A DNA stretch of 56,285 bases, taken from assembly GCA_012514175.1 (NCBI GenBank), contig JAAZAU010000001.1:1-56285 (forward strand), given 5' to 3'. Position 1 is the stretch's first letter; each line of letters begins with the position of its first letter. Positions 47,884 through 56,285 of this stretch are shown here, piece after piece. This DNA is from Parcubacteria group bacterium. Its GTDB lineage: Bacteria > Patescibacteriota > Minisyncoccia > Phycocordibacterales > WO2-35-19. The notes under the pieces were generated by a model, which saw only the letters and a list, made by a program, of their open reading frames with translations, was not told the origin of the DNA and did not search any database. The translations under genes and the position numbers were made by a program.

Positions 47884-48913
47884 TTACCCTTTTTTGATAA
47901 TTTTAAAAATTGAAGCCTTTTTCCTGGAAACCAAAATCTTCAGTTTCTTTTGACCTTCAAAAAAATTTTTGAATTGAAGTATTGCTCCCTCAAATTTTTC
48001 AACAGAGCCGGTTAAGATAACAGCAATTCCTTTATTAACGAGCATTCGTTTGAATGCTTTCAACATATCAATATAGAAAGCAACCAGATTGTCAATTTTT
48101 TGATATTCTCCCCACGGAGGATCTGTAATAATCTTGTCCATGGTTTCATCCTTGATCTCTTTTAAGTTCAAGGCGTTAGCGCACAAAATTTCTATATTCC
48201 TATGTTTACTTAGATTGTTTTTTAATTTTAAAGTTAGGCTTTTATCTTGATCTACTGCAATTAAAAATTTGTATGGAAAACTATGGATTCTTTCTTTGGG
48301 AATAGCGCCATAACCAGCAAACGGATCTAGAATAATGTCTTTAGGAGAAGGGGCTGACAAAAAAGATAAAAGGTGAGCCAATTCTGTTTTGAGTTTGCCT
48401 TTTTGTTTTGATTTAATTTTGTCATAGTTATATGAAATTCTGGTGCCAAAAAAATCAATTCCTTCGGACCTCAAAATAAACCAAAATTCCAAATCAGGGT
48501 TCTTTACGCTTAGTTTGAGATCTTCTATAAAACACAACTTCTCTTCTAATTTTTTTACTAAACCGCGATCAACTGAAATCATTTGATTTGCTAAAGAAAA
48601 AACAATCTTAAACCTTCTTCTTTTAGGGGGGGGGCAGACTACTCTTGATTAGGGGAATAAAGTTTTTAACCCCCAAAACTTTTTTTACCATTAGAACAAA
48701 ATATTCACTCGTTGGGTTTGCATCTTTAAACTCGTATAGCAATCTAAAAACATTATTTAGAAAACGATAATTTCTTACGTCTCTTTCGGTTGCCTTAGTC
48801 TCAAATACAACTAAACCATCAAAGATTTTAATATCTTAGCTTTTCCTTTTTTTGAGCAAAATCTCAATTATTTCTTGAGTCCCACTAATAAATGTTGAAA
48901 AATAAACTTTCAT
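47884..48913 (-). pseudogene. RNA methyltransferase (Trm11/UPF0020-like), N-terminus disrupted
   Basis: LDPFAGYG and ITDPPWG in 47884-48582; upstream frame from ATG 48913 has an in-frame TAA and a frameshift in a C9 run (48626-48634). Confidence 0.7.
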
Positions 48914-49035
48914 ATGTTTTTTGTAAATACTTTGTTGAATTTATCATGGGTCACAAGTTTGGGTTCTTCTTAAACTTTATTAAAATACTCGCAATTTGTT
49001 TTGCTTTAGTTTACACTTCCTGCAACTTTACGTCT

Positions 49036-49240
49036 AATCCGAACTCTTGTTTGTCCTATCAAATGTTTTTGACGGAATCTCCTCCGCACATCCTTCCGCC
49101 TCGCCCTCGCTCGTTCAAAAAATTTCAGGGCAAAACTGAAACGCTCGGGCGAGCAAAAAGGAAGGGATTAGGGGAAAGGAATTTTTACCCACCCTCGCTT
49201 TCCACCATCGCCGAATTTCGTGCCAACGAAGTTGACACGT
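49036..49240. repeat. GC-rich repeat element, left island flank
   Basis: Shares CTCGCTCGTTCAAAAAATTTCA (49106-49127), AATCCGAACT and GGCGAGCAAA with 56110-56285. Confidence 0.6.
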
Positions 49241-49257
49241 TGCTATTTGTTTTCTTC

Positions 49258-51057
49258 TCACTTTTTCACAAGCGATAAGCATGTCATAATATGAAAAAGT
49301 CGGTCTGACACATCTCTTGTAAAAAATTTCTTTTTGCCAAAACCATGAGCGAAATCATTTCTCAAATTCATTCCTAATTTTTCCGTCAGCACCAATCTGA
49401 AGTAAAAAGCCATATTTTGCCCCGTTCCAGCAAAAACTCTTTCAATAATTTCACCTTGTTTGTTCAATAATTGGCGAAGGGTAAGGCGATCGTATCCGCC
49501 AAGATTATTTGGCCTCAAAACAATACCACCGCAATTTTTTACCAATTCCCTGATTGCGCTTTCGATCAACGGACTGAACAAGTGTGAAGAAACAAGATAA
49601 TCATTATCCCAATATACTGAGATTGCTCGCTCTAAATACTCTTTATTTTCATTCTCAAAAAGTGTTGAGTTTCTAAAATAATCCGTAATGTTTTGTTTAG
49701 AAACTCGCTTTTTCAGTTCATCGATCACAAGAGTTAGAAAAAACGAACCAAATTGAATATACTGCGAAGCGTATCGCTGGAAATGATTGTCGTAATCTTC
49801 CCCAAGCGTGGAAAGTTTAGCTATTGGTATTCCGTCATCGGAAATAATTTGTGTCGTGCATAAAAACTGGATCGGGTGTTTTCCGGAAACATCTTTTAAT
49901 TGCTTTTCTACCGCTTCTTTTTTCGGTAAAAAATTGATTGCTATTTTAGCGATAATCGCTTCTAATTTACTTTGCTCTTTCTCGCCAAAAATTGCTTTCA
50001 AAAAATCGTCAATATCTTTCTGTTTTATTTCCGTTGTTACGGAAATTTCTTTGAGGGATTTATTCCAATCCAAGTCCAGCTGCCCCATTTCCTGCGAAAT
50101 TCTGTTGCTGGCGGCTGTTGCCTTTGAAAATCCTTTGTCTCTGTATTTTTGATATATCTCGTGTACTTTTTCGTATGCGTGTACTTTCAATAATGCGTCA
50201 GAATTTGTGCGGTCGTTTGTTTTTAATAATTTTTCCAAAACATCTAAAACACGCATTAAATTATCTTCGTCTTTTTCGTTTGCGTAATATTCAGCAAGCA
50301 AGGAAACGGCGTTTTCCGCCAGCCACACATCTTTTTCAACCCTTTTCAACCTATCTTCTAACGCTTTAATCAATTCCGATTTTTCTGTTTCCGTAATCGT
50401 AATTTTTTTTTCAAAATCCAAAATGAGCCACTTAAAAGCAAAGCCCCACAGCCCCGGCTTATCGTCTGTCGCCACTTTTTTCTCAAGATTGATTATTGCT
50501 TCTTTTGCTTTGGCGATTTTTTCTTGATTGTTAATTTGAATTGCCAAAACTAACGCTCTTTTGATTTTTGTTTTGCAATCAAGAGGGTCGGCTAATGATT
50601 TTTCGCAAATTGCGATATTTGAATCTATAACTATCTGAAACAAATCAATATCGGCACTTTTGTTTATAACTTTCGGTGAAAAATCAACAACCAAATCGGC
50701 GTAGCGTGATGATAAAATAGGGTTTTTGCTTTCCTTTGCTCTTTTTGTCCAATATTCCAACATTTCTTGATCCACTTGCCTAATACTTGGATATTCCACC
50801 ATTTGTTCTTTGTTGTCTGGTAAAACAAACATTGGTCCATGATAAGTTTCCCAGTCATTATTATCATTCGGATAATCTGCCATGAAATCAAAAGCTATTT
50901 GCTCCGCAATGTCTTCTTTTGTTGGCTCATATTGTTTATCTTTTTTGAGAAGATCTTTTATTTTTTGTGCAATATTATGCTCTCTACAAAAAGACGTAGG
51001 AGTTATTTGTTCTCGTTCTAAACTTTCAAGATATTTTTTTACCTCATTATTGAGCAT
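49258..51057 (-). CDS. DUF4209-like protein with C-terminal HEPN-type RxxxxH motif
   Basis: 599 aa, helical; C-terminal PLIESAIR...GMNLRNDFAHG. Confidence 0.65.
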   Translation of the reverse strand: MLNNEVKKYLESLEREQITPTSFCREHNIAQKIKDLLKKDKQYEPTKEDIAEQIAFDFMADYPNDNNDWETYHGPMFVLPDNKEQMVEYPSIRQVDQEMLEYWTKRAKESKNPILSSRYADLVVDFSPKVINKSADIDLFQIVIDSNIAICEKSLADPLDCKTKIKRALVLAIQINNQEKIAKAKEAIINLEKKVATDDKPGLWGFAFKWLILDFEKKITITETEKSELIKALEDRLKRVEKDVWLAENAVSLLAEYYANEKDEDNLMRVLDVLEKLLKTNDRTNSDALLKVHAYEKVHEIYQKYRDKGFSKATAASNRISQEMGQLDLDWNKSLKEISVTTEIKQKDIDDFLKAIFGEKEQSKLEAIIAKIAINFLPKKEAVEKQLKDVSGKHPIQFLCTTQIISDDGIPIAKLSTLGEDYDNHFQRYASQYIQFGSFFLTLVIDELKKRVSKQNITDYFRNSTLFENENKEYLERAISVYWDNDYLVSSHLFSPLIESAIRELVKNCGGIVLRPNNLGGYDRLTLRQLLNKQGEIIERVFAGTGQNMAFYFRLVLTEKLGMNLRNDFAHGFGKKKFFTRDVSDRLFHIMTCLSLVKK

Positions 51058-51161
51058 ATTTTTGATAGAATTTGCTGTGGATAATTGACTACGGACTTTC
51101 TATTTTCTTTCTATTATACTATAAGAAGTATAGATTTAACAAAAGATAAAGTGAAATATTT

Positions 51162-52694
51162 ATGCTTACAAAAAAACAGAAACAAGTTTTAGATTTTATA
51201 TCCTCCTATCACAAGAAAAAGGGATATGCCCCTTCTTTGGAAGAGATACGCAAAAAACTTAAAGTTGCCTCTGTTTCAACCGCCCATTTCCATGTAAAAA
51301 ATTTGCAGAATTTGGGATTTATCGGGAAGCAAGATAATAGACCAAGGTCAATTGATATTTATGAAAAGGAAAAAATGGTAAATGTTCCATTACTTGGATT
51401 AATTGCGGCTGGTCAACCTATTGAAGCGATACAAAGTCAAAACAGAGAAACAATCGCCGTTCCAAGAAGTAAAATATCTCGCAATGGTGAATTTTACGCT
51501 TTAAGAGTAGTTGGTGACAGTATGATTGATGAAAATATAAATGACGGCGATTTAGTTTTAGTTAAACAACAAGATACCGCTAAGAATGGACAAAAAATAG
51601 TTGCCCTTGTGGACAACTATGAAGCTACTTTGAAAAAATTTTATAAAGAAAAAAATTATATAAGATTACAACCTGCGAACAAAACAATTGAGCCGATTAT
51701 TATAAAAAGAAATAGAGAGTTAACAATACAAGGTATTGTTATTGATGTAATAAAAAATGAAGAAGAGATACAAGCTGAAACACTTTTAGAAAATAAAGAA
51801 ATAAAAAGAAGTCAAACACTTCCTTTGAATAAAATTATTTTAGGCGATGCCGTAGAAGAATTAAAAAAATTACCAAATGAAAGTTGTGATGTTGTTATTA
51901 TTGATCCACCATATAATATCGGAAAGGATTTTGGAAATAACTTAGATAAGCGCGAATTAAAAGAATATGTCGCTTGGTGTAAAGAATGGATAAATGAATC
52001 AATTCGGGTTATGAAGCCCACGGGAACAATGTTTATTTATGGGTTTAGTGAAATACTCGCCTATCTTTCAGTTGAAATTTCGATCAATAAACGCTGGCTT
52101 ATTTGGCATTACACAAACAAAAATGTTGCCTCGTTAAATTTTTGGCAAAGAAGCCACGAGGCTATAATTTGCGCTTGGAAAGATATCCCAATTTTTAATA
52201 AAGATGATGTTAGAGAGCCATACACTGAAGGTTTTTTAAATGGAGCCGCGGGAAAAGTTAGAAAAGGAACCGCTGGGAGATTTAGCCGTAATGGAAAAGA
52301 AACAATTTATAATGCTCATGCTGGCGGGGCTTTACCTCGCGATGTAATAAAAATACCAGCTTTAGCTGGTGGAGCGGGAATGAATGAAAGATGGTTTATT
52401 TGTAAAACTTGTAAAAATCAAGTTTTTGAGCCAAGAGAATTAAAAAACCATGCAAAGCATGATATAGTCAAGCACCCTACGCAAAAACCTCTTGAATTAT
52501 CAAAAAAATTAGTGATGTCCGCAATGCCCAAAAAAGACGGGGTTGTGTTGGTGCCATTTGTTGGAACCGGTTCTGAGTGTGTAGCAGCTAAAAAGTTGGG
52601 TCAATCTTATATAGGGTTTGAAATAAATCCCGACTATATAAAATTGGCTGAAAAATATCTGGAAAAAAGCAAATACACTCCAAAATTATTTTAA
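51162..52694 (+). CDS. lexA: LexA repressor fused to beta-class N6-A/N4-C DNA methyltransferase
   Basis: LTKKQ..YAPSLEEI wHTH, IAAG cleavage site, VGDSM (Ser), ATLKK (Lys); then IDPPYN, HPTQKP, PFVGTGS, IGFEIN in one frame. Confidence 0.9.
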   Translation: MLTKKQKQVLDFISSYHKKKGYAPSLEEIRKKLKVASVSTAHFHVKNLQNLGFIGKQDNRPRSIDIYEKEKMVNVPLLGLIAAGQPIEAIQSQNRETIAVPRSKISRNGEFYALRVVGDSMIDENINDGDLVLVKQQDTAKNGQKIVALVDNYEATLKKFYKEKNYIRLQPANKTIEPIIIKRNRELTIQGIVIDVIKNEEEIQAETLLENKEIKRSQTLPLNKIILGDAVEELKKLPNESCDVVIIDPPYNIGKDFGNNLDKRELKEYVAWCKEWINESIRVMKPTGTMFIYGFSEILAYLSVEISINKRWLIWHYTNKNVASLNFWQRSHEAIICAWKDIPIFNKDDVREPYTEGFLNGAAGKVRKGTAGRFSRNGKETIYNAHAGGALPRDVIKIPALAGGAGMNERWFICKTCKNQVFEPRELKNHAKHDIVKHPTQKPLELSKKLVMSAMPKKDGVVLVPFVGTGSECVAAKKLGQSYIGFEINPDYIKLAEKYLEKSKYTPKLF

Positions 52695-53375
52695 AGAATT
52701 ATCTATTTCTTTTTTCTTCGGCAAAAAAGTATCTGGTGTAAAAACAACAAAACCATTATCAAAAGCCTTTGTTCGTTTGTCTTCCAAAAATCTTAAGTAA
52801 GGCAATCTAAATTCGCCACTCTTTGTTTTTGGATCAGACAAACAAGTCGGCACTTCATATTTTATATCTATATTTTCGCCGTTATTTTTCTTTTTTCTCG
52901 GCAAAGGAACTCTGCTCATCACTCCACTAAAACTTGTTTTCTTGACTTGATAATTTAAAATACGATTTTTATAATTAACTCTTATATCTGCGCCTAAAGA
53001 ATCAAGCTCACGAGACATATCCACTGTTCCATTTCCAAAAACGGATTCGGCAACATAACCGCCGTGAATTTGAGTTATTAACCCCGCCCAAGTTCTGTAA
53101 ATTCGGGCTTCTATTCCGCGATAAAAACAATCTTTACACATTGTTGTTTTCTGTCTAAACTTTTCAAGTAAATCTCCTTTCTCTTTCGTATATCTTTTAT
53201 AAAATTTTTCAAAAGTAATAAATTTTTTCTCTTCCCAATATACTTTATATAAAAGTTCAATGGCTTGAATTCCTTTTGGCAAATCCATTTCAACAATTTT
53301 AATAGTGCTATATTTTTTTCTATAGTCTTTTAAGGGAACAGTTTGTAGAAATTTATCAAATTTTTCTAAATACAT
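52686..53375 (-). CDS. TaqI-family type II restriction endonuclease
   Basis: FL..YRKKY..IK.VEMDLP, GIEARIYRT, TQIH, ELDSLGAD, YQVKK, NGFVVF match my recollection of R.TaqI in order. Confidence 0.8.
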   Translation of the reverse strand: MYLEKFDKFLQTVPLKDYRKKYSTIKIVEMDLPKGIQAIELLYKVYWEEKKFITFEKFYKRYTKEKGDLLEKFRQKTTMCKDCFYRGIEARIYRTWAGLITQIHGGYVAESVFGNGTVDMSRELDSLGADIRVNYKNRILNYQVKKTSFSGVMSRVPLPRKKKNNGENIDIKYEVPTCLSDPKTKSGEFRLPYLRFLEDKRTKAFDNGFVVFTPDTFLPKKKEIDNSLK

Positions 53376-53376
53376 A

Positions 53377-53595
53377 TTAAATAAAATAATTTATTTCTTT
53401 TTTATATATTTTTGCGAGTTCTTGTAATTCTGCTACATCAATTCTGCGTTCGCCTCTTTCAATTTTTGATAAATAAGATTGAGGTTTTTTTAATTTTTTA
53501 GCAACTTCTTCCTGTTTTAAACCAATTTCAAACCTAGCTTTTTTAAGCCTTTCAATAGTTTTTTTATATTCTTTTGAATAAATTGACTTGTTCAT
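53377..53595 (-). CDS. XRE-family HTH controller (C-protein-like)
   Basis: 72 aa, LKQEEVAKKLKKPQSYLSKIERGERRID; immediately upstream of and co-oriented with the endonuclease. Confidence 0.85.
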   Translation of the reverse strand: MNKSIYSKEYKKTIERLKKARFEIGLKQEEVAKKLKKPQSYLSKIERGERRIDVAELQELAKIYKKEINYFI

Positions 53596-53602
53596 ATTAC
53601 TT

Positions 53603-53648
53603 TTAGTATATATCCTATTGTAGGATATCCCAAAATAGGTTATACTAA
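53603..53648. promoter_or_regulatory. Tandem palindromic operator between divergent -10 boxes
   Basis: ATATCCTA-TTG-TAGGATAT (53610-53628) and ATATCCCA-AAA-TAGGTTAT (53625-53643), flanked by TTAGTATA/TATACTAA. Confidence 0.65.
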
Positions 53649-53882
53649 TTTAGGGAGCTTCTCTCTGTTGCTCGCGCATGGGTGGGCGAGGCAAATACAG
53701 CTCAATTAATTTGCTATACTACATAAGTATTCAGCTAAGGTGTTCTTATAAATAAACACCTTATGGACTCTCAGGATTAGACTTTGGTCTAATCTTACTT
53801 TCTTTACTGGGTTCACAAGCATGGTGCTTGCGGATTCCGAGAGGTTCGGCTCTTTGCAAACCACAAACAAAAAGGAGAGAAT

Positions 53883-54722
53883 ATGACTCATTCAAAACCA
53901 ATTAGAATTCTTTTGGTGATGGGAGACTCGCTTCTGAGAGCAGTCAAGCAGGTTTTGTTGACTGTTGGAAACAAGTCCTTGTACACTTTTGTGGAGGATG
54001 TTAGTCAGGCAGATCTTGTCATCTTCACAGAAGTTCGAGATGTTGAGCGCGGGTACGACAGGAATAAAATCTACGCGTATCTGCAGGCAGGATCAAGGGT
54101 AACAACAAAGCTACCCGAAAACTGTCTGATTATAAACACTCTTGCTGGAAATGCTGTGGAGGTTATTATCGAGGCAATTGAAAAGGCCAGAAAGCTTCTT
54201 AAACCGACCACTGAAAAGTCGGTTATTCGAAAAGAAAAATCGGTCCCGCTTCTGCCAGACGCTCTGCGGATTCTCATCATTGATGATGAGCCAATGAATA
54301 TCGCCAGTGCTAAGAAAACTCTGGCTGGGCACCGACTCTCGACAGTAACAGGCTACGAAGACGCGATGAATATTCTTGAAAAAGAAAAATTCAACGTTGT
54401 TCTCACCGACTTGCATCTGCCGATGAGTTCAAAAATGCTCAGCGACAAAGCTTTCAAGCTCGGTGAGCTCATTCCTTACGGAATTCTGCTCATGGTCGAG
54501 GCAGCGCGACGGGGTGCAAAACATGTGGCCGTCGTTACTGACCTCAATCACCATGATGACCCTTTCTCGGCAGCGTTTGATCACTACTCTAATTTTCCCG
54601 TGAAAATTGAAGGAGCGAAAGTGGTTATGATGCACGCGCCGATGATTGAAATCAAGAAAAACAAATGGGTTAAAGATTGGGCAATGGTTCTTGATTTCTT
54701 GGTTGGGGGAAACGAGTCATAA
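53883..54722 (+). CDS. Atypical response-regulator-like protein (C-terminal receiver domain)
   Basis: AAGGAG SD; RILIIDDE and VLTDLHLP receiver motifs; N-terminal domain unrecognised. Confidence 0.65.
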   Translation: MTHSKPIRILLVMGDSLLRAVKQVLLTVGNKSLYTFVEDVSQADLVIFTEVRDVERGYDRNKIYAYLQAGSRVTTKLPENCLIINTLAGNAVEVIIEAIEKARKLLKPTTEKSVIRKEKSVPLLPDALRILIIDDEPMNIASAKKTLAGHRLSTVTGYEDAMNILEKEKFNVVLTDLHLPMSSKMLSDKAFKLGELIPYGILLMVEAARRGAKHVAVVTDLNHHDDPFSAAFDHYSNFPVKIEGAKVVMMHAPMIEIKKNKWVKDWAMVLDFLVGGNES

Positions 54723-54855
54723 ATATCCCAGTTAAACAGTTCTTTTGTTCACCCGAAGGGAGGTGATAAATTGGGAGGATAGCATTATCCTCCTCCCATT
54801 AAAATTTTTAACACGTTTGAAGATTTTAGTGGGAGAATTTTCTCTTAAAAATCGC

Positions 54856-54884
54856 TTGACATAAAAAGTGGAATATGCTATACT
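54856..54884 (+). promoter_or_regulatory. Strong sigma70 promoter with extended -10
   Basis: TTGACA-17 bp-TATACT with TG at 54876-54877. Confidence 0.8.
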
Positions 54885-54889
54885 TGAAG

Positions 54890-55235
54890 AGTATTGAGTT
54901 CTTTGGCATGACAGCTTCGTTTCTCCCCATAAATCCGCTAAAACGTTGGTTTATGGGGGGAGAGGAAAAAGAGCTAGCAGGCTACACACTCTAACCAAGC
55001 TTTCATAATCCCGATATCGGTGTTGAATCAAACCATACCGATATAAAAGGATAAGTTTGAAGGCCAATCAGAGGCGTGTGGGCGTTCGACTGGCGATGAC
55101 ATTTCTTCTTCCCTTTTGTTCTGTGAGCGCAGGTTGGGACAGCCTTGGCGCCGGCAAGTTCTTGTGGGGACCCAACTATAGCAGCAAACCGCTGGAGATT
55201 TCTTTTTTTTGTGAGATTTCCAGCGGTTATTTTTA
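54890..55235 (+). ncRNA. Candidate ~345-nt structured non-coding RNA
   Basis: Lies between consensus promoter and terminator; several nested stems; no SD-led ORF. Confidence 0.55.
55187..55235 (+). terminator. Intrinsic terminator
   Basis: AACCGCTGGAGATTTC / GAGATTTCCAGCGGTT stem followed by T-rich tail. Confidence 0.8.
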
Positions 55236-55449
55236 TTTCAATTTTTAAAAATTAAATTCCTCCGGTTTCTGTCTTATTGCTTACTCTTTAATCTGTGCTT
55301 CCAATCTCCATTTACGATTAACAAAAGCATCAACATCTTTTTGAGTTATTTTTACATCCACTCCAGAATCTCGTGTGGCGCTATACAGTTTCCTTTTTAA
55401 GGTATATAAGATTGACTAATTTCTGTTTAGGTTTAGAGTGTAGCTACCT

Positions 55450-55970
55450 ATGAGTTCCATTGATTATAGTCAGTTTCTAGAATTGATTTCCCCTAACAAC
55501 TTTTTTTGTTCTGGTATTTGTTGGTGTTGTATTACTTGTTAATAATGTTCAAGAAAGATCAAAGGTTTTTAATTGTCGAACCAATTTTATACCTAAACCT
55601 CGATAAGAAGACCGATGCCTTTATGTCTTTCTGTGCTCGCTATACAGGTGTTGGAATCTTGCCGATCATTCTCTTTTATTTTGGAACACTTGAGTACTTA
55701 TCTGGAAATATATATCTGATAACTTTTTCCTTCTCACTCATATTCCTTATTTTTACCTGGTCGGCATATGGATACTCGCTTAAAAAACTCAAGGATATTG
55801 TGCCGGTTGATGTATATTTTACAGATGAAAAGAACGAGCCATTGCAAGGAGTTAGAATTCTTAAAATAAACGATGACAATATACGTATTCGTTCAAATAA
55901 CAAGACTTTGATAATAAACAAAGGTGAAGTTCTCAAAATAGAAATGAAGACACCTGAGCATCTTCAGTAG
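55450..55970 (+). CDS. Hypothetical membrane protein, probably frameshifted at T7 run 55501-55507
   Basis: ATG 55450 (MSSIDYSQFLELISPNNFF) joins the 55506-55970 frame if one T is added; about three TM helices and a small C-terminal beta domain. Confidence 0.55.
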
Positions 55971-56109
55971 AATTCATTTTTCTGTGCGGTAACTTTTAAA
56001 TGGTCCATTATCTTATACTCTTTTGTGTGTTCATGAGGATTAACAAATCTATACCAAAGTTCGGAATGATACCAATCTTTACCACTTTATTTTCTTTTTT
56101 CGTATTTCG

Positions 56110-56285
56110 GCTTCGCCGAGCTCTCGCTCGTTCAAAAAATTTCAATTTCGCTGAATGTAAATTGGCGGTACCTTTTGGTTAAAATCCGAACTTTTTTTGA
56201 TGAAAATCCCGATTTTGACTTTTAGACCCGCCCCAGCGTTTCCGCCCGCCGAAATTCGGCGAGCAAAGCAAAACAATTTTCTTTC
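56110..56285. repeat. GC-rich repeat element, right island flank (truncated by window end)
   Basis: CTCGCTCGTTCAAAAAATTTCA at 56123-56144 identical to 49106-49127; further shared blocks. Confidence 0.6.

What the first reader, a model, noticed from the sequence alone, without database searches (positions are those of the whole stretch)
51162..53648. Candidate damage-responsive R-M system: intact LexA fused to the methyltransferase, plus endonuclease and controller
Seen: one 510-aa ORF with LexA wHTH, Ala-Gly cleavage site (IAAG) and Ser/Lys dyad (GDSM, TLKK), then a linker and a full MTase (DPPY, HPTQKP, FxGxG). It overlaps tail-to-tail by 9 bp with a TaqI-like endonuclease preceded by a C-like HTH gene. 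Known: RecA-ssDNA triggers LexA self-cleavage; C proteins time endonuclease expression. Inference: self-restriction or other DNA damage would cut off the DNA-binding domain, de-repress the gene and free the MTase, a built-in feedback protecting the chromosome while the nuclease is controlled separately. Best candidate for an undescribed system in this window.
Basis: partly seen in the sequence, partly recalled or inferred. Interest (0 to 1): 0.85.

Follow-up and report, generated by a model that had tools for sequence, protein, structure and literature searches.

The report
LexA-fused methyltransferase restriction-modification cassette
A small mobile restriction-modification unit whose protective methyltransferase is fused to a complete, cleavable LexA repressor, so methylation is probably switched up by DNA damage; the design is common in Patescibacteria and I found no paper describing it.

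Summary
Window 51162-52694 (+) is one 510-aa ORF: a LexA winged helix, an S24 autoprotease and a beta-class DNA methyltransferase. Ala83-Gly84, Ser120 and Lys158 align to E. coli Ala84-Gly85, Ser119 and Lys156. It overlaps a TaqI-like endonuclease gene tail-to-tail by 9 bp, and a C-type HTH gene sits 1 nt upstream of that gene.

The fusion is real. An independent assembly bridges the junction, and 75 other fused ORFs were recovered. The unit is a 2.6-kb cassette (51076-53686) shared at up to 94% protein identity between distant Patescibacteria.

New here:
- LexA modules are fused to three methyltransferase families, and 66 of 72 have a convergent partner ORF.
- The cleavage and catalytic residues are invariant in 76 of 76 fusions.
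- The promoter carries a tandem repeat, TTTCTAT-N4-TTTCTAT, between -35 and -10. It occurs once in the genome, and its sequence tracks the recognition helix.
- A perfect DnaA-box 9-mer heads the cassette.

Best reading: a self-repressed methyltransferase gene, de-repressed when RecA-stimulated self-cleavage removes the DNA-binding domain. Induction by damage is inferred, not shown. The cut leaves the methyltransferase attached to the S24 domain, so it is not "freed". No description was found in print, but one relevant 2017 paper could not be read.

The parts
51076..53686 (.). Whole 2.6-kb mobile cassette: control region, LexA-methyltransferase gene, endonuclease gene, C gene and C control region
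   Evidence: blastn homology to cassettes in other genomes starts at 51069-51076 in 7 of 15 loci compared and ends at 53644-53686 in 8. The flanks differ between genomes.
51076..51084 (+). TGTGGATAA, the reverse complement of TTATCCACA, which I recall as the DnaA-box consensus. It is the first conserved element of the cassette.
   Evidence: An exact copy lies in the 120 nt upstream of 59 of 74 fusion genes, across all operator classes, and 5 more have one mismatch. G000 has 14 copies, 11 of them intergenic. dnaA is present.
51092..51120 (+). Inferred promoter of the fusion gene: -35 CGGACT (51092-51097; TGGACT/TTGACT in relatives), 17-nt spacer, -10 TATACT (51115-51120)
   Evidence: Read from the sequence and from conservation in relatives. 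The consensus scan did not call it because the window's -35 is weak.
51097..51114 (+). Candidate LexA-module operator: tandem direct repeat TTTCTAT-N4-TTTCTAT, 11-bp period, filling the promoter spacer
   Evidence: One exact copy in the 635-kb genome. One-mismatch copies number 3 against 2-4 in shuffles. It is conserved in relatives and changes with helix residue 43.
51162..52694 (+). LexA-methyltransferase fusion gene, 510 aa
51165..51347 (+). LexA winged-helix DNA-binding domain (residues 2-62); recognition helix around S39-H44 (STAHFH)
   Evidence: Pfam PF01726; alignment to E. coli and T. maritima LexA
51387..51743 (+). S24 autoprotease and dimerisation domain (residues 76-194), with cleavage site Ala83-Gly84 (51408-51413), Ser120 (51519-51521) and Lys158 (51633-51635)
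   Evidence: Pfam PF00717; residue mapping; invariant in 76 of 76 fusions
51888..52655 (+). Beta-class N6/N4 DNA methyltransferase domain (residues 243-498; DPPY then FxGxG)
   Evidence: Pfam PF01555; PDB relatives 9c3u/8urk, MboIIA and RsrI; PADLOC MTase_II 8.3e-51
52686..53375 (-). TaqI-like type II restriction endonuclease, 229 aa, convergent with the methyltransferase gene and overlapping it by 9 bp
   Evidence: Pfam RE_TaqI 9.6e-28; PADLOC REase_II 8.8e-23. Adjacent in 45 of 52 window-type cassettes that have enough downstream sequence.
53377..53595 (-). C-type controller gene, 72 aa HTH_3, 1 nt upstream of the endonuclease ATG
   Evidence: Pfam HTH_3 1.8e-14; weak PADLOC Control_protein hits, best 3.7e-6; present in 20 of 41 window-type cassettes with room to see it
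53605..53641 (-). C-R promoter and candidate C-boxes: -35 TTGGGA (53633-53628), -10 TATACT (53610-53605), inverted repeat ATATCCTA-caa-TAGGATAT (53628-53610) in the spacer, and a second imperfect repeat to its left. The ATG lies 9 nt after the -10.
   Evidence: Consensus scan; sequence; a block of about 37 nt is conserved upstream of C genes in the closer relatives
53650..53686 (.). Conserved GC-rich element at the right end of the cassette, function unknown
   Evidence: Conserved in L033, L034, L035, L042, L045, L059 and L067 upstream of the C-box block

Best explanation
This is a horizontally mobile type II restriction-modification cassette of Patescibacteria.

Parts. The cassette's only methyltransferase is made as a fusion to a complete LexA module: a winged helix, a cleavable hinge and an S24 autoprotease/dimer domain.

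Resting state (inferred from comparison). The LexA module binds the tandem repeat TTTCTAT-N4-TTTCTAT, which fills the spacer of the gene's own promoter. This holds methyltransferase synthesis at a low, self-limited level, as N-terminal HTH domains do in SsoII/Ecl18kI-type methyltransferases.

Endonuclease control. The convergent endonuclease is timed separately by a C protein acting at its own conserved control region.

Damage response (inferred, untested). Single-stranded DNA appears after self-restriction, repair or replication trouble. RecA filaments then stimulate self-cleavage at Ala83-Gly84. The DNA-binding domain is lost, the promoter opens, and more methyltransferase is made, still joined to the S24 domain. 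No terminator-like site was found on the + strand between the methyltransferase stop and position 53773. Extra transcription would therefore run antisense through the endonuclease and C genes and may lower them at the same time. The net effect would be a damage-triggered shift from restriction towards modification.

DnaA-box-like site. A conserved DnaA-box-like 9-mer just upstream of the promoter may add a link to replication.

Scope. In this genome the module is a private regulator. It is not an SOS master repressor.
For: - Domain content and intact catalytic residues.
- A83, G84, S120 and K158 are invariant in 76 of 76 fusions whose LexA parts are 46-95% identical to the window.
- LexA modules are joined to three methyltransferase families: PF01555, PF02086 and PF00145.
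- 66 of 72 fusions have a convergent ORF at the 3' end. 38 of them show the same 9-bp overlap. Two of those partners are HNH nucleases.
- Modules have been exchanged. L016 vs L019: LexA 86%, methyltransferase 29%. L018 vs L020: 72% and 96%. Window vs L085: 52% and 83%. Methyltransferase classes are intermixed on the quick LexA tree.
- The operator lies between -35 and -10 in relatives and occurs once in G000.
- Helix residue 43 predicts the repeat. F/Y/H goes with TTCTA in 42 cases and TTCGG in none. Q/E goes with TTCGG in 21 and TTCTA in none.
- 8 of 13 exact TTCGGT-N5-TTCGGT sites in 41 related genomes lie directly upstream of fusion genes.
- 8 of 20 stand-alone lexA genes of the phylum carry TTCGGT-like tandem repeats after TTGACA and have T(V/I)HEH helices.
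- Direct-repeat LexA boxes are reported in print: passages of PMC7739468, and GTTC-N7-GTTC in PMC8565304.
- recA is present.
- Autorepression by an N-terminal HTH on a methyltransferase is established (passages of PMC3874152).
- No + strand terminator-like site lies downstream of the methyltransferase gene before 53773.
Against: - Nothing here shows cleavage, DNA binding, repression or induction.
- The helix-operator link is between elements about 100 bp apart that are inherited together. The counts are therefore not independent events.
- Variants exist without the S24 domain (L095, L096) or without any LexA part (L097-L100). These carry 78-84% identical methyltransferases, so the cleavable module is dispensable for the system.
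- The window's -35 (CGGACT) is weak, and the consensus scan did not call the promoter.
- The fate of the S24-methyltransferase fragment after cleavage is unknown. If it were degraded, the outcome would be the opposite of protective.
- The structure model was too poor to use: mean pLDDT 63.7, S24 region below 50.
- 10 of 74 upstream regions lack the 9-mer, and no cluster of such boxes was seen beside dnaA. Its assignment to DnaA is a lead only.
Confidence: 0.6

Rival explanations
1. The LexA module serves only as a dimeric autorepressor that sets a steady methyltransferase level and gives a burst on entry into a new host. Self-cleavage plays no physiological part.
For: Relatives with only the winged helix (L095, L096) or no LexA part (L097-L100) keep the same methyltransferase and endonuclease. 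HTH-methyltransferase autoregulation is known to work without cleavage (PMC3874152 passages).
Against: The cleavage site and Ser/Lys dyad are invariant in 76 of 76 fusions down to 46% identity. The whole S24 domain travels with the winged helix onto three methyltransferase families.
Confidence: 0.17
2. Cleavage destabilises the methyltransferase, because the fragments are degraded as LexA fragments are in E. coli (my recall). Strong RecA activation, for example during phage replication, would then lower methylation and let the endonuclease kill the cell: an abortive-infection or addiction switch.
For: The new C-terminus after cleavage would end in -IAA. That resembles the -VAA end of cleaved E. 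coli LexA, which I recall being a ClpX signal. The cassette sits beside a candidate defence gene, PDC-S39.
Against: The -IAA end belongs to the winged-helix fragment, not to the methyltransferase fragment. De-repression would at the same time raise synthesis. No data bear on stability.
Confidence: 0.13
3. The fusion is the organism's general SOS repressor, and the methyltransferase rides along on it.
For: It is the only TIGR00498 match in a genome scored 100% complete. Public annotation calls relatives 'transcriptional repressor LexA'.
Against: The operator occurs once in the genome, and near-matches are at chance level. The gene lies in a mobile cassette shared between distant lineages. Relatives carry up to three fusions plus a stand-alone lexA: G016. 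Fused LexA parts group apart from 7 stand-alone ones on the quick tree, SH-aLRT 86.
Confidence: 0.05
4. The fusion is an assembly or frame artefact that joins two separate genes.
For: None found.
Against: An independent contig bridges the junction with no differences. 75 other fused ORFs were recovered. At least 120 protein clusters of about 507 aa carry the same three domains.
Confidence: 0.01

Closest known systems
SsoII / Ecl18kI / EcoRII / ScrFI-type methyltransferases with an N-terminal regulatory HTH
   Same: A DNA-binding domain is fused to the N-terminus of the methyltransferase and represses its own promoter through an operator that overlaps it (PMC3874152 passages; PMC2760811 and PMC3978073 abstracts).
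   Different: Here the domain is a full LexA, with hinge and S24 autoprotease, so repression could be removed by proteolysis. The operator is a tandem repeat. The endonuclease gene is convergent rather than divergent and has its own C protein.
C-protein-controlled type II systems with convergent M and C-R units, such as Esp1396I (recalled) and PvuII (PMC2175313 abstract)
   Same: A small HTH gene sits directly upstream of the endonuclease gene and is co-oriented with it. Conserved symmetric boxes lie in its promoter. The leader is very short.
   Different: The C gene is optional in this family: 20 of 41 cassettes have it. I found no C-box-like sequence at the methyltransferase promoter, where control appears to come from the fused LexA module.
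LexA, the SOS repressor (TIGR00498; PDB 3k2z, 1jhh, 3jso)
   Same: Same two domains, cleavage site and catalytic dyad, and a score above the family cut-off. Operator architecture resembles the tandem repeats upstream of 8 of 20 stand-alone lexA genes sampled in the same phylum.
   Different: It is covalently joined to an enzyme, sits in a mobile cassette, and has a single site in the genome. The window's TTTCTAT specificity differs from the TTCGGT boxes of the stand-alone genes.
Restriction alleviation of type I systems after DNA damage (ClpXP acting on HsdR)
   Same: The inferred purpose is the same: to tilt the balance away from restriction when the chromosome carries unmodified or damaged DNA (PMC12707154 passages).
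   Different: That mechanism degrades the restriction subunit of type I enzymes. Here a type II system would raise its methyltransferase by cleaving a repressor domain.
TaqI restriction endonuclease family (PF09573)
   Same: The N-terminal 150 residues match the family above its cut-off. TCGA, which I recall as the TaqI site, is the most depleted 4-mer palindrome in the genome at O/E 0.25.
   Different: The partner methyltransferase is beta-class (PF01555), not the gamma-class M.TaqI type. The C-terminal third of the endonuclease does not match the model. Specificity is untested.

Membership tests
LexA (TIGR00498 / PF01726 + PF00717) | N-terminal LexA winged-helix domain plus C-terminal S24 domain, scoring above the curated cut-off | tested here: met
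   183.6 bits against a cut-off of 110.95; both Pfam domains
LexA (TIGR00498 / PF01726 + PF00717) | Ala-Gly cleavage site and Ser/Lys catalytic dyad | tested here: met
   A83-G84, S120 and K158 align to the E. coli positions and are invariant in 76 of 76 fusions
LexA (TIGR00498 / PF01726 + PF00717) | RecA-stimulated self-cleavage | not testable with these tools
   recA is present in the genome; there is no biochemical evidence
LexA (TIGR00498 / PF01726 + PF00717) | Represses a regulon of DNA-repair genes | tested here: not met
   The candidate operator is found once in the genome, and one-mismatch copies are at shuffle level
Type II restriction-modification system | DNA methyltransferase with catalytic and SAM-binding motifs | tested here: met
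   PF01555 2.5e-35; the DPPY and FxGxG positions P249, Y251, G468 and G470 are invariant; PADLOC MTase_II
Type II restriction-modification system | Adjacent restriction endonuclease gene | tested here: met
   PF09573 9.6e-28 and PADLOC REase_II 8.8e-23; adjacent in 45 of 52 related cassettes
Type II restriction-modification system | Matching sequence specificity of the two enzymes, and restriction of unmethylated DNA | not testable with these tools
   Indirect only: TCGA O/E 0.25 in the genome
C-protein-controlled R-M | Small HTH gene immediately upstream of the endonuclease gene and co-transcribed with it | tested here: met
   72-aa HTH_3 protein with a 1-nt gap to the endonuclease ATG
C-protein-controlled R-M | Conserved symmetric C-boxes in its own promoter | tested here: inconclusive
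   An inverted repeat lies in the promoter spacer, and a block of about 37 nt is conserved in relatives. PADLOC Control_protein hits are weak, 3.7e-6 to 3.7e-4. Binding is untested.
HTH-methyltransferase autoregulation (SsoII type) | DNA-binding domain fused N-terminally to the methyltransferase | tested here: met
HTH-methyltransferase autoregulation (SsoII type) | Operator overlapping the methyltransferase promoter and bound by that domain | tested here: inconclusive
   The position and the link to the helix support it; binding is not shown
HTH-methyltransferase autoregulation (SsoII type) | Divergent R and M genes sharing the regulatory region | tested here: not met
   The genes are convergent and overlap by 9 bp

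The most novel reading that the evidence does not exclude
Patescibacteria carry a large family of restriction-modification systems wired to DNA damage. A portable LexA module, derived from the phylum's own SOS repressor, has been attached repeatedly to unrelated methyltransferases. Some modules keep the host SOS box (TTCGGT repeats) and so are plugged into the host response and into each other; G016 has three such systems. Others, like this one (TTTCTAT), have drifted to a private operator. RecA-triggered cleavage raises modification and, through convergent transcription, lowers restriction. This would be the first type II counterpart of restriction alleviation. The conserved DnaA box would add coupling to replication.
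Probability: 0.45. Interest if true: 0.85.

Novelty: new variant of a known kind. Interest (0 to 1): 0.72.

Why it matters
Type II restriction systems are dangerous to their host whenever unmodified DNA appears during repair, recombination or establishment in a new cell. Known safeguards are C proteins, HTH-methyltransferases, antisense RNA and, for type I enzymes only, proteolytic restriction alleviation.

A methyltransferase carrying its own cleavable SOS repressor would be a direct, one-protein link between DNA damage and the restriction/modification balance.

The family also offers a natural series of LexA helix variants paired with their operators. That is useful for understanding how LexA specificity evolves and for building orthogonal, damage-inducible switches.

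It also bears on how genome-reduced episymbionts with few regulators control their many defence systems, and on annotation. All the database names shown among the best 120 relatives are 'LexA', 'methyltransferase/methylase' or 'hypothetical protein'. That inflates apparent SOS repressor counts and hides the restriction systems.

Tried and rejected
- Structure. AlphaFold2 on a 61-sequence alignment gave mean pLDDT 63.7, with residues 137-213 below 50. It was too poor for fold searches or for domain-packing claims, so I did not use it.
- Phage origin. A scan of viral contigs found no relative: 8 pattern matches, none confirmed.
- tRNA or known RNA near the cassette. None was found in 48000-56285.
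- A regulon for the operator. Rejected. The 2-mismatch count was 77 against 36-42 in shuffles. I put that excess down to T-rich low complexity and did not pursue it.
- The palindrome TATAC-N8-GTATA (51115-51132) as an operator. Its spacing is not kept in relatives, so I set it aside in favour of the tandem repeat.
- The C protein acting at the methyltransferase promoter. I saw no sequence there resembling the C-box block. The repeats are also present in cassettes that lack the C gene.
- RNA evidence. Two RNA-library contigs lie on the stretch: X18 at 52581-52851 and X19 at 52049-52299. Such libraries can hold DNA, and contigs give no strand or level, so I make no expression claim.
- oriC-like clustering of the 9-mer beside dnaA. 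Not seen. The only cluster was one of three boxes (two with a mismatch) on C12.
- Tree. The careful search did not finish in 288 s, so the quick tree (SH-aLRT only) was used.
- Complex prediction. Not run, because I claim no new protein-protein contact.
- Literature. Searches returned no paper describing a LexA-methyltransferase fusion. The 2025 review PMC12707154 has 0 occurrences of 'LexA', and PMC3874152 mentions LexA only for toxin-antitoxin systems. Sanchez-Osuna et al. 2017 (Environ Microbiol, Patescibacteria SOS network) and PMC4951493 are not held, and I saw only citations to them. The 2017 paper may already report the TTCGGT-type box, and possibly the fusions. Supplements were not consulted.
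Full report
**1. The observation**

The ORF at 51162-52694 (+) encodes 510 residues. Pfam finds LexA_DNA_bind (2-62), Peptidase_S24 (76-194) and N6_N4_Mtase (243-498). The NCBIfam lexA equivalog scores 183.6 bits against a cut-off of 110.95.

Aligned to solved LexA chains, IAAG 81-84 lies on E. coli VAAG. Ser120 lies on the residue that is Ala in 1jhh, and Lys158 on the residue that is Ala in 3jso. That those entries are the S119A and K156A mutants is my recall.

The methyltransferase part resembles solved beta-class enzymes: 9c3u/8urk, MboIIA and RsrI.

The 229-aa ORF at 52686-53375 (-) matches RE_TaqI over its first 150 residues (9.6e-28) and PADLOC REase_II (8.8e-23). It overlaps the methyltransferase gene by 9 bp. 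The 72-aa HTH_3 gene at 53377-53595 (-) ends 1 nt before the endonuclease ATG.

**2. The fusion is real**

The stretch is held by 17 DNA runs at half or more of its sampled words, from 11 study codes. In run X12, which is not among the runs flagged as a possible source of this DNA, a 1248-nt contig covers 51226-52473 with no differences. No indels were listed.

The protein search returned at least 120 clusters of about 507 aa at 74-95% identity with the same three domains.

**3. The host**

The genome has 635,603 bases in 14 contigs and is scored 100% complete. Named relatives of the protein come from Patescibacteria.

It has recA and dnaA. The fusion is its only TIGR00498 match.

In an even sample of 251 genomes of the phylum, 195 have a LexA match. 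Among the 150 matches listed, 13 genomes including this one show frames of 440 aa or more. The rest are frames of about 140-370 aa, mostly 200-270 aa, at 33-52% identity. 82 weaker matches were not listed. One genome in that tally, G194, is unpublished.

**4. A mobile cassette**

A scan of species-representative genomes gave 80 loci.

DNA homology to the window begins at 51069-51076 in 7 of the 15 loci compared, and further left in 4 of them. It ends at 53644-53686 in 8 of them, with unrelated flanks.

Proteins 92-94% identical occur in records labelled Dojkabacteria, Tagabacteria and Falkowbacteria, and in several short contigs with other labels. This speaks for recent transfer.

Of the 58 other fusions with this methyltransferase type:
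- 52 have at least 700 nt downstream, and 45 of those have the TaqI-like gene.
- 20 of 41 with room to see it have the C gene.

**5. A general design**

In relatives of the same genus and family, LexA modules are fused to PF01555, to D12-class PF02086 and to C5 PF00145 methyltransferases. One genome, G016, has three fusions plus a stand-alone lexA.

Across all 72 fusions with at least 500 nt downstream, 66 have a convergent ORF of 100 aa or more ending at the fusion's stop. 38 of these have the same 9-bp overlap and 13 a 4-bp overlap. Of 10 such partners scanned, two are HNH nucleases and eight have no Pfam match.

Modules have been exchanged:

| Pair | LexA identity | Methyltransferase identity |
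|---|---|---|
| L016 vs L019 | 86% | 29% |
| L018 vs L020 | 72% | 96% |
| Window vs L085 | 52% | 83% |

On a quick tree of 83 LexA parts, the 7 stand-alone ones lie on one side of a branch (SH-aLRT 86). The methyltransferase labels need 14 changes where 8 is the minimum. The careful search did not finish.

Searching the LexA part against longer proteins gave 2915 hits at E<=1e-10. The best 120 are all LexA+S24+PF01555.

Variants without the S24 domain (L095, L096) and without any LexA part (L097-L100) carry 78-84% identical methyltransferases. The loci were chosen by likeness to the whole fusion, so these proportions are biased.

**6. Selection on cleavage**

In 76 aligned fusions, whose LexA parts are 46-95% identical to the window, A83, G84, S120 and K158 are invariant.

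**7. The operator**

Upstream of nearly all fusion genes lies a tandem repeat with an 11-bp period. It fills the spacer between a -35 (TTGACT/TGGACT) and a -10 (TATACT/TATAAT). In the window it is TTTCTAT-N4-TTTCTAT at 51097-51114.

It occurs once in the genome. One-mismatch copies number 3, against 2-4 in shuffles.

The repeat unit follows helix residue 43:

| Residue 43 | TTCTA | TTCGG | Other or none |
|---|---|---|---|
| F/Y/H | 42 | 0 | 7 |
| Q/E | 0 | 21 | 5 (1 CTCG, 4 none) |

These counts are not independent events, because helix and operator are inherited together. Two further observations help:
- In 41 related genomes the exact TTCGGT-N5-TTCGGT pattern occurs 13 times (reversed control 5). 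8 of the 13 lie directly upstream of fusion genes.
- Of 20 stand-alone lexA genes sampled from the phylum, 8 show TTCGGT-like tandem repeats after TTGACA and have T(V/I)HEH helices. The other 12 have coding sequence or no such repeat upstream.

The fused modules therefore appear to derive from the phylum's own LexA and its direct-repeat box. The window's TTTCTAT class is a diverged, private specificity.

Direct-repeat LexA boxes are reported in print (passages of PMC7739468 and PMC8565304). PMC7739468 cites the Patescibacteria study that I could not read.

**8. Other control elements**

*The 9-mer.* TGTGGATAA at 51076-51084 is the first conserved base block of the cassette. An exact copy lies within 120 nt upstream of 59 of 74 fusion genes of all operator classes. 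5 more have one mismatch and 10 have none. In G000, 11 of its 14 copies are intergenic. I recognise it from memory as the DnaA-box consensus. Its role is unknown.

*The C gene.* It has a promoter, TTGGGA-17-TATACT, at 53633-53605, with an inverted repeat in the spacer and a second to its left. The block is conserved in the closer relatives.

*Terminators.* No + strand terminator-like site lies between the methyltransferase stop and 53773.

**9. Specificity hint**

TCGA is the most depleted 4-mer palindrome in the genome: 307 observed, 1230 expected. It occurs once in the cassette. In L038 the same fusion continues into a gamma-class methyltransferase with a TaqI_C domain. Both fit a TCGA system, and neither proves it.

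**10. Mechanism and rivals**

Shown:
- the domain content;
- conservation of the catalytic residues;
- the pairing with nucleases;
- mobility of the cassette;
- the position, uniqueness and helix linkage of the repeat.

Inferred:
- binding of the repeat and autorepression;
- RecA-stimulated cleavage and de-repression;
- antisense interference with the endonuclease and C genes;
- a protective outcome.

The main alternatives are autorepression without physiological cleavage, and cleavage that destabilises the methyltransferase and so kills the cell. A role as general SOS repressor is unlikely, given the single site and the mobile context.

**11. Comparison and novelty**

It works like the SsoII/Ecl18kI class of HTH-methyltransferases combined with a C-controlled endonuclease. 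The DNA-binding domain, however, is a whole cleavable LexA.

None of my searches found this described, nor did the two reviews I searched for the term. The caveat about the unread paper stands.

I rate it a new variant of a known kind. It is common in sequence databases and unexamined in the literature I could search.

Noticed in passing
window 49258-51057 (-): A 599-aa protein with DUF4209 and weak DUF7380 matches PADLOC candidate defence family PDC-S39 (9.5e-34). It lies divergently next to the cassette. 70%-identical copies flank the cassette in L033, and DNA homology extends over it in L034. Possibly a small defence island.
   Followed up: partly
window 56165-56212: A 48-bp element near the contig end recurs at 85-96% identity close to the cassette in L033, L039, L044 and L057. 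It is not a tRNA or an Rfam family. A 22-nt piece of the stretch just before it (about 56123-56144) repeats at 49106-49127.
   Followed up: partly
whole genome G000: No stand-alone lexA in a genome scored 100% complete, although recA is present. With the full fusion as query, three genomes of the same genus at 91-100% completeness (G011, G014, G015) gave no match at all.
   Followed up: partly
whole genome G000: Strong depletion of TCGA (O/E 0.25), GTAC (0.31) and CATG (0.41), suggesting several past or present restriction systems.
   Followed up: no
L038:5001-8390: A 1129-aa protein: LexA, S24 and the beta-class methyltransferase, continued in frame by a gamma-class N6_Mtase with a TaqI_C specificity domain. 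No convergent endonuclease gene is present.
   Followed up: partly
G016 (L015, L016, L026, L028): One genome holds three LexA-methyltransferase systems whose upstream regions all carry TTCGGT-N5-TTCGGT, plus a stand-alone lexA. Cross-regulation between systems seems possible.
   Followed up: no
L028 and L029, upstream of stand-alone lexA: These two stand-alone lexA genes carry TTATCCACA and a palindrome-like CTGAC-N6-GTC(A/G)G instead of tandem TTCGGT repeats. A second LexA specificity may exist in the genus.
   Followed up: no
window 53650-53686: A GC-rich conserved element (CCCAT-CGCG-GCAAC ... CTCCCT on the minus strand) lies at the right end of the cassette, upstream of the C-box block. 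Its function is unknown.
   Followed up: no
L091 and L103: Copies of the cassette in which the fusion gene is split into separate LexA and methyltransferase ORFs and the endonuclease ORF is truncated. They look like decaying cassettes.
   Followed up: no
window 47884-48582 (-): A 232-aa UPF0020/RMKL-like methyltransferase with a PADLOC mad2 match (2.7e-16) lies 2.5 kb upstream of the cassette.
   Followed up: no
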